Assembly (NCBI RefSeq): GCF_013167455.1 | Contig: NZ_CP038328.1 | DNA from: Escherichia coli O157:H7 | GTDB taxonomy: Bacteria > Pseudomonadota > Gammaproteobacteria > Enterobacterales > Enterobacteriaceae | DNA: 64,000 nucleotides | Reading direction: 5' to 3' (one strand) | In this document: in pieces, positions 24,001 to 27,000 of the stretch | How the letters are laid out: each line of letters opens with the position of its first letter | Numbering within the stretch: the stretch's first letter is position 1 | Made by a program: the position numbers

Positions 24001-27000
24001 CGACCTGGTGGCAAACCAGTATGTCATGGCGCTTTACTGGCCGGTTTCCTCTCTGCCGCAGGGTGTCACCCTGACAGGGGATGCAGGGAATAATCTGCTG
24101 GCATCGTTCTACATCCAGACAGACGCAAAAGACCTGAATGTGATGTACCACAATGCAAAAGTGGCAACAAATAACCAGAAACTGGGAACCTTTGGTGCAT
24201 TTGATAATGAATGGCATACGCTGGCCTTCCGTTTTGCAGGAAATAACAGCCTTCAGGTTATTCCGGTTATTGATGGTCAGGATGGTGCCGCGTTTACCCT
24301 GACGCAGTCACCAGTAGGAACTTTCCCGGTGGACAAACTCCGCGTAACGGATATCACAAAAAATGCAACTTACCCGGTGCTGATTGACAGCATTGTGGTG
24401 GAAGTGAAAAAAGCGGTAACAGAATAAAAAAATCCCGCCGGTCATGATATGGCTGGCGGGAGCTACCTAACCCATAAAGGAAAATAAAAATACTCCCGAA
24501 GGAGTGGTTATCAGTCGCTTCGATGTTTTTACCCGATAACGAATTATGTAGTCAATATCAAAGGTAAGGTTATATGACATTCGTTCATACAATGCTGCTT
24601 TATTTCTGCGCAGTGGTCAGTGCGTTATATCTGGTGAGCGGCGGTTATAAGGTCATCAGAAATTATATTCGCCGTAAAATTGATGATGCGGCAGCTGAAA
24701 AACTCAGTAAAACAGCACAGGCACCGTCATCCCCAAACGACCCGACCCCGCTCTGATAACGGGGCAATATACCTGCAAAAGGAGAATATTCATGCCAGAG
24801 ATTAAAGGCACGGTTACTGAAGAGCTTGTCAAACAGGCACTTTATTCTGAAGAAGTGAACCGCGTGCTGAAGGCGCAGGTTCGCAAGGATTTTGAGGCAC
24901 AAATCGACGCATATGTTGATGAAGTGCTGGCCCGAATGGTTGGCCATTCTCCGGCTGAAAACAGCACGGAGAATGAGCCTCAAGCCGTAGAGCAACCAGA
25001 GCCGGTTCAGCCCGGAACTGACGGTACTATGATGTAACAATACCGACCGGCAGGTTTCCCTGCCGGGTGAATTTGTTAATGCACGTTTTGTGTACTTTCC
25101 CTCCGGGGAGAACAGGCAGGACATATCAGCATCCTGAAACAGGACGCATTTTGGGGTTTGTATGTCTTGCCATTTTGAGATCGAGAACGGCGATAGATGA
25201 GCTGTAAGGGAGTCTTACAGGCAGGGCAAACAGGCTCTTTATCCATGTAAAGATCTCCTTTTTATGCATCTCTGCTTTACAGGAGACCGGGGAATATCAT
25301 AGGATACGACACGAGCTCGAAGTAAAGCATTGATGCGAATTTGTTCCAGGTCCAGATAGCTGTAACTATCTGGACCTCCCTTTATGTAGTATCCTGTTGA
25401 TTTGAAACATACTACATATACGCGCGATCCTACCTTCACTGTATAAAAAGTCAATAAAATGATCATTTTATGATCGTTTTCACCACCTAAGTCTTCGTTT
25501 TCTTTAAGTAAATAATCACCGCCCTGAATCATTGTTGATGACTTTTCAATCTATTTGTTGTATCAATTAAACAAATCGAATCGATCGTTTTTGTCGATCG
25601 ATTGCATGAGAAAGGCATCAACAACAAAGCAGGAGGTTATGCGGCCATGTATCGAAACATACGGTGCCGACACTGCAATAAGCTACTGGCACGGGCCAGT
25701 TTCAGTTATCTGGAAGTAAAATGTCCGCGCTGTAAAACCCTCAATCAAATCACATCTCCGAGCGCCACAGAGCACCCCACATACACAAGGAAATCCTGTC
25801 GTGGGGAACAGAAAGCAAGTCACATCCCGTATCATCAGCACGCCTGAACTTCGGAACGACCTGAAAAAAGCCTGTTCATTGCGGATTCCTGTCCTGGGTT
25901 TAGTGCTGTTCGATCAGTTCATCCAGCTTTTTCTGGCTCGTTTGCAGCGTGCCAGGGAGATCGGCTTTACCTACGGTGACGTTATGCACCATGGAGCTCA
26001 CCACCCCAGACCCCGTCACATCGCCCATGCGGGTAAATTTTTTATCCCCTACTGCGCCAAAGACCTGAATATTCGGCAGTTCACCGATTAACTGATTTGG
26101 CAGTTCACCCAGCGCCTTAATAACGTCGTTGTCTTTCCAGGTGGAAGTAGTGACAACCGCTTTGTTCACCGGCAGCGCCGCGCCTGGCGACATCATCACC
26201 CAGTCGGCAATGTTGTCTGCCTGCTCCATAAAGGTGACAAATTTTTCAGCCGCTTCCGTTTCTTCAGTCTTTTGTCCGGCGGTAATGGTCAGCGAGGTCA
26301 ACATGCCGTAGACGGCAGAGTTTTTCTCGGTTGGCACCACGAAACCGACGTTTTTCGGATCGCCTTCTTTAATCACAGCCGGAAGGATATAGGTGGAGTA
26401 AATCGCCATCGGCGCGGTGCCGTTCATAAAGGCGTCTTTCACTTCCATGATGTCGTTAGAACCCGGCATGGTGTTGGCAGCAAGGTCGCGGTAATAGGTC
26501 AGCGCCTGCATCATCTCTGGTGAATCAAGGGTGATTTTGCCTTCGGCGTTAAAGACGTTGGCCTAGTTGGATAACGCAAACTGGGAGAAGGATTGTTCCG
26601 TCAGCACGCTTTCTGCCGTAGGCAGCGCAATACCGTATTTTTTATTCGCCGGGTCATTCAGTTTCTGTGCAACGTCCAGCAGCTGTTGCCAGTTTTTCGG
26701 CTCCTCCAGCCCCGCTTTTGCCAGCACATCTTTGCGATACCAGATGCCGCCAATCCAGGCGCTGACAGGAACACCGGTCCATGCGCTACCATCTTCGGTA
26801 CGCACAATACGCAGTACGCCATCGTAAAACGCGCCTTCACCAACGTTGCTGATGACCGTGGCAACCGCCTTGCGATCGATAAGCTGCTCTTTGTCCATAA
26901 CTTTGGCGTAGTCATGACTGGTTTCAATCACTTCCGGCAGCGAGCCGCTACGTGAAAGAGTGATGACTTTGGTGTTATAAGCGTCCTCTTCGACGGGCAC

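What the first reader, a model, noticed from the sequence alone, without database searches (positions are those of the whole stretch)
25080..25646. GATC-dense palindromic control region upstream of com
The roughly 570-bp AT-rich region before com holds about 8 GATC sites and three strong palindromes, one of them the perfect 18-mer ATAAAATGATCATTTTAT centred on GATC. In Mu the mom operon promoter is controlled through Dam methylation of GATC sites and OxyR binding. This region may be an analogous methylation-sensitive switch, now driving com alone or reading outward into host DNA.
Basis: partly seen in the sequence, partly recalled or inferred. Interest (0 to 1): 0.45.

Follow-up and report, generated by a model that had tools for sequence, protein, structure and literature searches.

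The report
Mu-type Dam/OxyR operator upstream of com
Only the last ~95 bases before com are a real control element, the counterpart of phage Mu's known methylation-sensitive (Dam/OxyR) mom switch. The other ~460 bases are a swappable small-gene cassette on the opposite strand, and the mom gene the switch once guarded has been deleted.

Summary
The stretch is AT-rich (41% GC against 53%). It holds 7 GATC sites, not 8: 3.1 are expected from dinucleotide shuffles, P about 0.03. It also holds four real inverted repeats, including the perfect 18-mer.

It is not one 570-bp control region. Comparison with about 40 related Mu-like prophages shows that only window 25538-25646 is shared by all of them. 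Inside it, 25553-25598 is a two-part OxyR-type operator. Its right half (ATCGTTTTTGTCGAT) carries two Dam sites 13 bp apart within a perfect 9+9 palindrome.

This operator aligns with phage Mu's own GATC2/GATC3 pair. It has the same format as the experimentally proven OxyR half-sites of P22 gtr. It is the best-conserved block upstream of com in several diverged phage lineages.

The other five GATCs and three palindromes lie in a mosaic minus-strand cassette. This comprises a 56-aa zinc-ribbon ORF with a strong ribosome-binding site, plus a hairpin-rich leader.

No Mu-type C-activator box was found. In this genome mom is cut off after codon 17 and the prophage right end is missing, so the switch now controls com alone.

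Verdict: an ordinary new member of a known kind. Interest is low.

The parts
25047..25066 (.). GC-rich hairpin CCGGCAGG-N4-CCTGCCGG between the convergent DUF826 gene (+) and the small minus-strand ORF. Probably a bidirectional terminator, but it lacks a canonical U-tract.
   Evidence: I8; sequence; not called by the terminator scan
25076..25246 (-). 56-aa zinc-ribbon ORF (CPAC...CPAC) with ribosome-binding site AAGGAG (25260-25255) 8 nt before its ATG. This is the likely real gene of the cassette. In class B/C relatives a different 68-76-aa ORF with its own ribosome-binding site replaces it at the same position.
   Evidence: no family match beyond weak PHROG hits
25239..25532 (-). 97-aa 'ORF1' (phrog_26524). 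Relatives annotate it together with the zinc-ribbon ORF as one frameshifted hypothetical protein. I read it as the shared leader and promoter region of the small gene, not as a conserved protein.
   Evidence: At least 7 different frame structures in DNA 94-100% identical. Only 28 homologues, the named ones from E. coli. Substitutions fall 5/5/8 by codon position. The cassette breakpoint lies just upstream of the ribosome-binding site.
25348..25377 (.). Perfect 12-bp hairpin with a 6-nt loop. It is kept as a hairpin in three sequence versions, with paired changes in both arms. On the + strand it is followed by CCCTTTAT, which looks like a terminator.
25383..25418 (.). 10-bp perfect inverted repeat TATGTAGTAT-N16-ATACTACATA. 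The stems are invariant in all relatives that carry it.
25427..25454 (-). Sigma-70-like promoter candidate TTGACT-16-TAGGAT reading towards the small ORF. Its -10 element overlaps the GATC at 25426-29. This is a consensus match only.
   Evidence: 2 promoter-like sites found against 2.6 expected by chance
25454..25471 (.). Perfect 18-mer palindrome ATAAAATGATCATTTTAT centred on the GATC at 25461, with a further GATC at 25472. It abuts the -35 element of the minus-strand promoter candidate. It is absent from M1-type relatives.
25538..25646 (+). Conserved com upstream region. This is the only part of the finding shared by every relative.
   Evidence: query 499-607 matched in all classes
25553..25598 (.). 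Two-part OxyR-type operator: ATTTGTTGTATCAAT, a 16-nt gap, then ATCGTTTTTGTCGAT. The right half-site carries both Dam sites (25583-86 and 25596-99).
   Evidence: 14/20; shuffles reaching 14: 0.2%; Mu's site also 14/20 with the same 16-nt gap; P22 gtr half-sites have the same format
25579..25603 (.). Perfect 9+9 palindrome AATCGATCG-N7-CGATCGATT holding the two GATCs 13 bp apart.
   Evidence: It is conserved in the window, L059, L063 and L067/68 families and is naturally deleted in L087/L090.
25607..25621 (+). Candidate -10 elements of the com promoter. TGAGAA (25607-12) sits where sister families have TATACT or TATCAT. CATCAA (25616-21) is TATCAT in the L049 type. No canonical sigma-70 promoter is present.
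   Evidence: inference
25632..25637 (+). Ribosome-binding site AGGAGG of com.
   Evidence: sequence
25647..25847 (+). com, a zinc-finger translational activator of 66 aa.
   Evidence: annotation of relatives
25801..25851 (+). 5' remnant of mom (GTG start plus 17 codons). Prophage DNA ends at 25851. Host ycjO, from about its codon 10 on the minus strand, begins at 25852.

Best explanation
The 567-bp stretch is a composite of two things.

(1) The com-proximal part, 25553-25646, is this Mu-like prophage's version of the phage Mu mom-operon control region. It is a two-part OxyR-type operator: two 15-bp half-sites separated by 16 nt. The right half-site, ATCGTTTTTGTCGAT, holds two Dam sites 13 bp apart inside a perfect palindrome. 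A weak, non-canonical promoter and the com ribosome-binding site follow directly.

By analogy with Mu, agn43 and P22 gtr, the proposed mechanism is this. Dam methylation of both GATCs keeps OxyR off, so transcription is permitted. Unmethylated DNA, and possibly hemimethylated DNA, lets OxyR bind. Because the operator ends only 48 nt before the com ATG, bound OxyR would cover the -35/spacer region and shut the promoter.

(2) The remaining part, 25076-25532, is a separate mosaic cassette on the minus strand. It has a small zinc-ribbon gene with its own ribosome-binding site, preceded by a hairpin-rich leader or promoter region. That region happens to contain three more GATCs and three palindromes.

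What is shown: the homology, the motif format, the conservation pattern and the mosaic structure.

What is inferred: OxyR binding, Dam dependence, the transcription start sites, and expression of the small gene.

In this genome mom and the prophage right end are deleted. The switch now governs only com and read-through into antisense ycjN.
For: - Alignment to Mu's mom regulatory DNA.
- Only 25538-25646 is shared by all mosaic classes.
- The pair CGATCG-N7-CGATCGAT is the best-conserved block upstream of com in diverged lineages that were retrieved through the Com protein.
- The top-scoring two-part OxyR match has the same 16-nt gap in Mu and in 8 com loci (the window plus 7 related loci). The window scores 14/20 and only 0.2% of shuffles reach that.
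- The P22 gtr half-sites that were shown experimentally to bind OxyR in a methylation-sensitive way have the same ATCG-N7-CGAT format and the same 13-bp GATC spacing.
- Mu's Dam/OxyR/C/Com control is described in PMC3378877 and PMC4461284.
- No canonical sigma-70 promoter is present, which fits a weak, regulated promoter.
- Cassette evidence: multiple frameshift forms, homologues found only among close relatives (the named ones from E. coli), no codon-position bias, and a breakpoint just upstream of the small ORF's ribosome-binding site.
Against: - The OxyR motif match is only 14/20. The left half-site has no GATC and matches 7/10.
- An AT-rich motif scores easily in AT-rich DNA. In the earlier 7-nt-gap scan, 4.8% of AT-rich windows reached 13.
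- No Mu-type C box (TTAT-N6-ATAA or ATAACC) was found upstream of com. The CCGCAAA late-promoter motif shared by this phage's own Plys and PI is also absent there.
- In the window lineage the good -10 of sister families (TATACT/TATCAT) is replaced by TGAGAA, so the promoter may be weak or dead.
- The distal GATC trio may not be incidental. It flanks a consensus promoter.
- There are no methylation, binding or expression data.
Confidence: 0.6

Rival explanations
1. The palindromic GATC pair is the binding site of another protein, not OxyR. Candidates are the phage's own late activator (its C homologue), or SeqA binding the two hemimethylated GATCs after replication. Alternatively, methylation may act directly on RNA polymerase because the sites lie in the -35/spacer region.
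For: - The palindrome is a perfect dyad placed about where Mu C binds relative to a putative start site (inferred).
- No other C box was found.
- The C homologue is only 39% identical to Mu C, so its specificity is unknown.
- The OxyR match is moderate.
Against: - The motif is unique within the prophage part of the window and is absent from this phage's Plys and PI promoters, which share a different motif.
- The same pair exists in Mu, upstream of and separate from the C box.
- The format is identical to proven OxyR half-sites.
Confidence: 0.2
2. The whole stretch 25076-25532 encodes one real 154-aa protein on the minus strand, as relatives annotate it ('hypothetical protein, frameshifted'). 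On this reading the GATCs and palindromes are incidental features of a decaying AT-rich gene, and no extra regulatory element exists there.
For: - An intact 154-aa ORF exists in L026/P0001, a cluster of 205 member sequences.
- phrog_26524 is matched at E 6e-65.
- A 154-codon ORF is long for 41%-GC DNA.
- Hairpin versions 1 and 2 differ by 6 nt, so the reading frame is kept.
Against: - At least seven different frame structures occur among near-identical relatives.
- There is no ribosome-binding site before the ATG at 25532, whereas a strong one precedes the internal small ORF.
- Class B/C relatives swap only the small ORF with its ribosome-binding site.
- Substitutions show no codon-position bias: 5/5/8.
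- The ORF matches no domain or family and has no homologue beyond close relatives.
Confidence: 0.12
3. In this particular genome the element is an inactive relic. The prophage has lost mom and its right end, the -10 element is degenerate, and the GATC operator persists only by descent.
For: - mom is truncated at codon 17, and no attR or 3' part of mom is present in the window.
- The neighbouring host genes ycjN and ycjM are also disrupted.
- The window lineage has TGAGAA where sister lineages have TATACT or TATCAT.
Against: - The same upstream sequence, 99.9% identical, occurs in relatives with intact com-mom, so the operator itself has not decayed.
- com is intact.
Confidence: 0.3
4. The GATC density is a chance feature of AT-rich DNA that is rich in the dinucleotides GA, AT and TC.
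For: - Dinucleotide shuffles reach 7 sites in 2.6% of trials.
- Two other places in the window also have 7 or more GATCs per 567 bp.
Against: - The proximal pair is conserved in position, spacing and palindromic context across diverged lineages and in Mu.
- 25420-25605 is the only 180-bp stretch in the 64 kb with 5 sites.
Confidence: 0.08

Closest known systems
Phage Mu mom-operon regulatory region (Pmom: Dam sites, OxyR operator, C activator, Com translational control)
   Same: - It sits immediately upstream of com at the right end of a Mu-like phage.
- Its DNA is alignable with Mu's (ATCAATTAAA...CGATCG-N8-GATCGATT).
- It has a GATC pair 13 bp apart inside the right half of a two-part OxyR-type site with a 16-nt gap.
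- Its core promoter is weak.
- com overlaps the start of mom.
   Different: - It has two GATCs, not three. The left half-site has lost its GATC.
- The operator ends 48 nt before the com ATG, against 75 nt in Mu. That leaves no room for Mu's C box (TTATgccccaATAA), and none was found.
- The phage's C homologue is only 39% identical to Mu C.
- mom itself is deleted in this genome.
OxyR/Dam epigenetic switches of P22 gtr and E. coli agn43
   Same: - The half-site format ATCGnTnnnAnCGAT has a GATC in each arm, 13 bp apart. That is the format of the P22 OxyR(A) and OxyR(C) half-sites.
- The operator overlaps the promoter, as OxyR(BC) does in gtr.
   Different: - Only two half-sites are present (gtr has three alternative ones). 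The gap is 16 nt, not 17.
- Only one half-site carries GATCs.
- There is no evidence of heritable ON/OFF phase variation.
- The cargo is a phage late DNA-modification operon, not a surface-structure gene.
com-led DNA-modification operons of other Mu-like prophages (FluMu hin1523, Pnm1 nma1821, B3 ORF47/48; Drozdz et al. 2012, PMC3299994)
   Same: - A com homologue precedes a DNA-modification gene at the phage's right end.
- The loci collected here show the same arrangement with a Dcm-type, a DPPY-type or a Dam-family methyltransferase in place of mom.
   Different: - The window lineage carries (or carried) mom proper.
- The GATC operator is present in most enteric-type com loci in the sample, and in few if any of the more distant, low- or high-GC com loci.

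Membership tests
Mu-type mom operon control region (Pmom) | Lies directly upstream of a com-mom operon at the right end of a Mu-like transposable phage. | tested here: met
   com lies at 25647-25847. The mom start and 17 codons lie at 25801-25851. Relatives 99.9% identical continue into a 245-aa Mom protein and the phage end. The window itself has lost the rest of mom.
Mu-type mom operon control region (Pmom) | A cluster of Dam (GATC) sites inside an OxyR-binding region upstream of the promoter. | tested here: met
   This is met at sequence level only. There are two GATCs 13 bp apart, homologous to Mu GATC2/3. The two-part OxyR motif scores 14/20, as for Mu, and 0.2% of shuffles reach that score. 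Mu has three GATCs and the window has two.
Mu-type mom operon control region (Pmom) | OxyR binds the unmethylated operator but not the methylated one, and expression depends on Dam. | not testable with these tools
   This needs EMSA or footprinting, dam/oxyR reporter assays, or methylome data.
Mu-type mom operon control region (Pmom) | A binding site for the late activator C (dyad TTAT-N6-ATAA, about -28 to -57) between the GATC sites and the -10 element. | tested here: not met
   No TTAT-N6-ATAA or ATAACC motif occurs in 25500-25646. Only 48 nt separate the operator from the com ATG. The CCGCAAA motif shared by this phage's Plys and PI is absent. The C homologue is only 39% identical to Mu C, so a different, unrecognised site cannot be excluded.
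Mu-type mom operon control region (Pmom) | A weak, non-consensus -35/-10 promoter that needs activation. | tested here: inconclusive
   No canonical sigma-70 match was found on either strand. The candidate -10 elements, TGAGAA and CATCAA, are poor. The start site is unknown.
OxyR/Dam phase-variation switch (agn43, gtr) | OxyR half-sites of the form ATAGnTnnnAnCTAT that carry GATC sites whose methylation blocks binding. | tested here: met
   ATCGTTTTTGTCGAT (25584-25598) has the same format as P22's ATCGGTAACAACGAT and ATCGCTTGTATCGAT. This is sequence evidence only.
OxyR/Dam phase-variation switch (agn43, gtr) | Alternative or competing methylation states that give heritable ON/OFF expression. 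| not testable with these tools
   Only two half-site-like motifs were identified, and only one of them carries GATCs. This architecture gives no obvious mutually exclusive states. Single-cell reporters would be needed.
Com family zinc-finger translational activator | A protein of about 60-66 aa with two CxxC pairs, encoded just upstream of and overlapping a DNA-modification gene. | tested here: met
   It matches phrog_13819 (E 5.3e-13) and phrog_6417. It is 46% identical to Mu Com with all four Cys conserved.

The most novel reading that the evidence does not exclude
The 'short-form' architecture seen here and in the L059, L063 and L067/68 families would be a distinct regulatory design. In it the OxyR/Dam operator overlaps the core promoter, ends 48-49 nt before com, and has no Mu-type C box. 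The DNA-modification operon (mom, a Dcm-type methyltransferase or a DPPY-type methyltransferase) would then be gated mainly by methylation-dependent OxyR occlusion. That might allow prophage-borne, phase-variable expression as in gtr and agn43, rather than strict C-dependent late expression.

In addition, the distal GATC trio and the 18-mer palindrome would form a second Dam-sensitive promoter, driving a swappable small-gene slot on the opposite strand. Together the two would make a divergent, doubly methylation-sensitive control region.
Probability: 0.15. Interest if true: 0.45.

Novelty: new member of a known kind. Interest (0 to 1): 0.2.

Why it matters
The Mu mom switch is the textbook case of Dam- and OxyR-dependent control of a toxic phage gene. 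The same operator format (a GATC pair 13 bp apart in an OxyR half-site, with a 16-nt gap to a second half-site) is conserved upstream of com in several diverged enteric Mu-like phages. It occurs there even where mom is replaced by unrelated methyltransferases. This supports the view that the operator plus com form a portable safety module for toxic DNA-modification genes.

For this window the practical value is in annotation:
- The real control element is about 95 bp, not 570 bp.
- The annotated 'frameshifted hypothetical protein' is probably a small zinc-ribbon gene plus its leader.
- The prophage is a truncated, mom-less remnant.

Nothing here would surprise a specialist.

Tried and rejected
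- Rfam scan of 24400-26000 at E <= 1: only two sub-threshold chance hits. No known RNA family accounts for the hairpins.
- Pfam, NCBIfam, PADLOC and PHROG searches of the minus-strand ORFs and the alternative cassette ORFs: no informative family.
- Large protein-database search with the 154-aa fused ORF: 28 hits, all close relatives (the named ones from E. coli), with no distant homologue. The apparent 78%-identical 'intact' version (P0002) is another frameshift mosaic.
- Search for a C-activator box: Mu-type motifs are absent upstream of com. I located the C homologue and Plys in a complete relative (L122) and found a motif shared by Plys and PI, CTGAnATnCCGCAAAnCCnG. It is not present upstream of com.
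- Short-word BLAST of the com upstream core against the rest of the prophage: only chance 8-12-mers.
- Sigma-70 promoter scans, both the tool's and my own relaxed one: nothing convincing in 25533-25646 on either strand.
- First OxyR scan with the 7-nt 'oxidised-form' gap: scores of 13-14, but in ambiguous registers. The 16/17-nt gap, calibrated on P22 gtr and Mu, gave one consistent register.
- Search for the prophage|ycjO junction in complete E. coli genomes and in GTDB species representatives: no hit, so the source strain was not identified.
- RNAalifold on the hairpin region: too few distinct sequences, and the variable hairpin was mis-registered. It reported only 1 compensatory pair. Folding each version separately shows that every one forms a hairpin.
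- Reading the dyad at 6222-6244 as the PI activator site: dropped once the Plys/PI shared motif was found nearer gene I.
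Full report
**Observation check.** The stretch 25080-25646 holds 7 GATC sites: 25179, 25252, 25426, 25461, 25472, 25583 and 25596. The stretch is 41.3% GC against 52.7% for the window. Mononucleotide composition predicts 2.07 GATCs. Dinucleotide-preserving shuffles give 3.12 +/- 1.59, and 131 of 5000 reach 7 or more. Only 0.56% of all 567-bp windows in the 64 kb reach 7. The 5 sites in 25420-25605 form the only 180-bp stretch in the window with 5. The enrichment is real but modest.

The palindromes are real (sequence):
- a perfect 18-mer at 25454-25471, centred on a GATC;
- 12-bp arms at 25348-59 / 25366-77;
- 10-bp arms at 25383-92 / 25409-18;
- 9-bp arms AATCGATCG / CGATCGATT at 25579-87 / 25595-603, each containing a GATC.

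RNA folding of 25300-25480 is far more stable than shuffles on either strand, with z = -5.6 and -5.0.

**Context.** The window's first 25.85 kb belong to a Mu-like prophage. It has a Gin-type invertase at 21728-22288 and an accessory-gene block of DUF6645, DUF1378 and DUF826 genes at 22379-25037. com follows at 25647-25847 (66 aa; Com PHROGs at E 5e-13; 46% identical to Mu Com with all four Cys conserved).

Every E. coli relative matches the window up to 25851 and then continues into a 245-aa Mom protein and the phage end. In the window, only the mom GTG start and 17 codons survive (25801-25851). From 25852 the sequence is host ycjO, from about its codon 10, followed by ycjN and ycjM on the minus strand. 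The rest of mom and the right phage end are nowhere in the window. No complete E. coli genome and no GTDB species representative carries this junction.

**Comparative dissection.** I collected relatives in three ways: by homology in E. coli genomes (L001-L005), by the palindrome pattern in viral contigs (L007-L040), and independently through the Com protein (L042-L121). BLAST of 25040-25646 against these loci shows a mosaic:
- Class A shares the whole stretch at 94-100% identity.
- Class B shares it only from about 25264 onwards.
- Class C shares it from about 25318.
- L023 shares it from 25514.
- The M1 type (L002, L008 and others) shares it only from 25538.

The only segment common to all is 25538-25646, which is 109 bp. 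Everything to its left is a replaceable cassette (alignment).

**The proximal element.** Mu's own sequence upstream of com reads gacGATCgaatcaattaaatcGATCggtaatacaGATCgaTTATgccccaATAAcc...ttttttaagat. Window 25562-25609 (atcaattaaacaaatcgaatcGATCgtttttgtcGATCgattgcatg) aligns with it. Mu's GATC2 and GATC3 are 13 bp apart, as are the window's two sites.

The P22 gtr switch gives an experimentally grounded yardstick. Broadbent et al. (PMC2909390) showed that each OxyR half-site contains a GATC pair (at -110/-97 and at -46/-33) and that methylation abolishes OxyR binding. The P22 sequence itself shows those half-sites as ATCGGTAACAACGAT and ATCGCTTGTATCGAT. This is the same ATCG-N7-CGAT format as the window's ATCGTTTTTGTCGAT (25584-25598).

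I scored the consensus ATAGnTnnnAnCTAT as two half-sites with a 16- or 17-nt gap. The results were:
- P22: 18/20, with a 17-nt gap.
- Mu: 14/20 at 2148-2193, covering its three GATCs.
- The window: 14/20 at 25553-25598. Only 0.2% of dinucleotide shuffles of the 117-bp core reach 14.
- Diverged com loci: 13-16/20.

All the com loci and Mu use the same 16-nt gap.

In the Com-retrieved set, CGATCG-N7-CGATCGAT is the best-conserved block upstream of com in four diverged enteric-type upstream families (the window, L059, L063 and L067/68 types). The flanks differ. L101 and the L108/L111 type also carry GATC clusters, in other arrangements. L087 and L090 are natural deletions of the block. More distant com loci, of low or high GC, mostly lack a GATC cluster.

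This pattern is good comparative evidence that the pair is functional.

**Promoter geometry.** Mu's start site can be placed at L006 position 2247, from the -58..+20 fragment in PMC4461284. That puts Mu's GATCs at -87, -69 and -56 and its C box at -50..-37. Mu's operator ends 75 nt before the com ATG.

In the window, L059 and L068 types the operator ends only 48-49 nt before the ATG. Sister families have a good -10 (TATACT or TATCAT) 7 nt after the second GATC. The window lineage has TGAGAA there, and CATCAA ten bases further on, which is TATCAT in the L049 type. No canonical sigma-70 promoter is detectable on either strand.

A Mu-type C box is absent. The phage's C homologue, found in the complete relative L122, is only 39% identical to Mu C. 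The motif shared by that phage's Plys and PI, CTGAnATnCCGCAAAnCCnG, does not occur upstream of com. The operator would therefore overlap the -35/spacer region. How the late activator acts here, if it does, is unresolved.

**The distal 460 bp.** Relatives annotate 25076-25533 as one 'hypothetical protein, frameshifted'. An intact 154-aa version exists in L026/P0001. Several observations argue against a conserved protein:
- DNA that is 94-100% identical shows at least seven different frame structures.
- All 28 database homologues are close relatives, the named ones from E. coli.
- There is no domain or family hit.
- Substitutions in 25383-25532 fall 5/5/8 on codon positions 1/2/3.

The downstream 56-aa zinc-ribbon ORF (25246-25076) has a strong ribosome-binding site, AAGGAG, 8 nt before its ATG. 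The class A/B breakpoint lies just upstream of that site. Class B/C relatives carry a different 68-76-aa ORF with its own ribosome-binding site at the same position.

I therefore read the small ORF as the real, swappable gene. I read 25247-25532 as its shared leader and promoter region rather than as a coding sequence.

That region contains the two hairpins. The first hairpin survives in three sequence versions, with paired changes in both arms. On the + strand it looks like a terminator.

A consensus-only promoter, TTGACT-16-TAGGAT (25454-25427, minus strand), has a -10 that overlaps the GATC at 25426. Its -35 abuts the 18-mer palindrome. That scan found 2 promoter-like sites against 2.6 expected by chance, so this is a lead and not a result.

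**Mechanism and rivals.** Best explanation (confidence 0.6): a Mu-type Dam/OxyR operator gates a weak com promoter, next to an unrelated minus-strand cassette.

Rivals:
- The palindrome binds the C homologue or SeqA, or methylation acts directly on RNA polymerase (0.2).
- The distal part is one decaying 154-aa gene with incidental GATCs (0.12).
- The element is an inactive relic in this truncated prophage (0.3; this is compatible with the best explanation for the lineage as a whole).
- Chance (0.08; this is excluded for the proximal pair by its conservation).

**Comparison with known systems, and novelty.** The element works like Mu's Pmom and is homologous to it. It meets the sequence-level criteria of position, GATC cluster and OxyR-type site. 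It fails the C-box criterion. Its functional criteria cannot be tested here.

com followed by methyltransferases in place of mom is already described for FluMu, Pnm1 and B3 (PMC3299994). My loci add Dcm-type, DPPY-type and Dam-family examples.

The finding is a new member of a known kind. It has a somewhat different 'short' geometry that would deserve a reporter test. Interest is low (0.2).

Noticed in passing
window 25801-25900: The prophage is truncated. mom ends after codon 17, which is 4 nt past the com stop codon, and joins host ycjO at about its codon 10. The rest of mom and the phage right end are absent from the window. The junction creates a 96-aa chimeric ORF (25801-26091) that runs antisense to ycjN. 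No complete E. coli genome and no GTDB species representative has this junction.
   Followed up: yes
window 25900-28947: Host ycjN and ycjM are each split into two ORFs: ycjN into 209 + 204 aa, ycjM into 145 + 434 aa. E. coli has single genes of 430 and 559 aa. The span 25900-27192 matches the intact ycjN length, which suggests a premature stop; the two ycjM ORFs overlap by 1 nt, which suggests a frameshift. This points to a pseudogene-rich, Shigella-like host lineage.
   Followed up: partly
L059:1655-2704, L068:1643-2434, L010:2314-3096 (minus), L097:1622-2473: In related viral contigs com is followed not by mom but by another enzyme: a Dcm-type C5 methyltransferase, a DPPY N6A/N4C methyltransferase or a Dam-family methyltransferase. 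The palindromic GATC pair precedes com in the enteric-type examples. com followed by a methyltransferase is already known for FluMu, Pnm1 and B3 (PMC3299994).
   Followed up: partly
L087 and L090, about 1440-1470 (upstream of com): These are natural variants in which the whole three-GATC operator is cleanly deleted (aacaaatcaatttgttatcat) while the -10-like TATCAT, com and the DPPY methyltransferase remain. They are ready-made 'operator-less' controls.
   Followed up: no
window 25325-25380: A block of about 50 bp containing the 12-bp hairpin is hypervariable among otherwise 94-100% identical relatives. There are three versions, 46, 52 and 54 nt long. Each still folds as a hairpin, with matching changes in both arms.
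   Followed up: partly
window 20144-25178: GATC is strongly depleted across the G-segment, gin and accessory-gene region. There are only 2 sites in 5 kb, against about 18 expected at the window average. The GATC-dense stretch follows immediately.
   Followed up: no
window 22379-25037: An accessory-gene block lies between gin and com: a 682-aa DUF6645 protein (phrog_143), a 60-aa DUF1378 protein and an 81-aa DUF826 protein. Phage Mu has no genes annotated between gin and com. At the DNA level the 24400-25900 part of the block (which includes DUF1378 and DUF826) matches only copies of this same Mu-like phage in the phage collection.
   Followed up: partly
window 6342-6361 and L122:11791-11810: A 20-nt motif, CTGAnATnCCGCAAAnCCnG, is shared by the regions upstream of gene I and of the endolysin gene. 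It is the probable late-promoter (C-dependent) element of this phage, and it resembles the CCCGCA block of Mu's Plys and PI. A separate dyad, AAGGTA-N11-TACCTT, lies at 6222-6244.
   Followed up: partly
L002:4689-4949 (minus) and class B/C loci (for example L017 and L039): The slot between DUF826 and com holds alternative small minus-strand ORFs in different relatives: a 97-aa ORF in the M1 type and a 68-76-aa 'MDKLTTD...' ORF in classes B and C. None of them matches a known family.
   Followed up: partly
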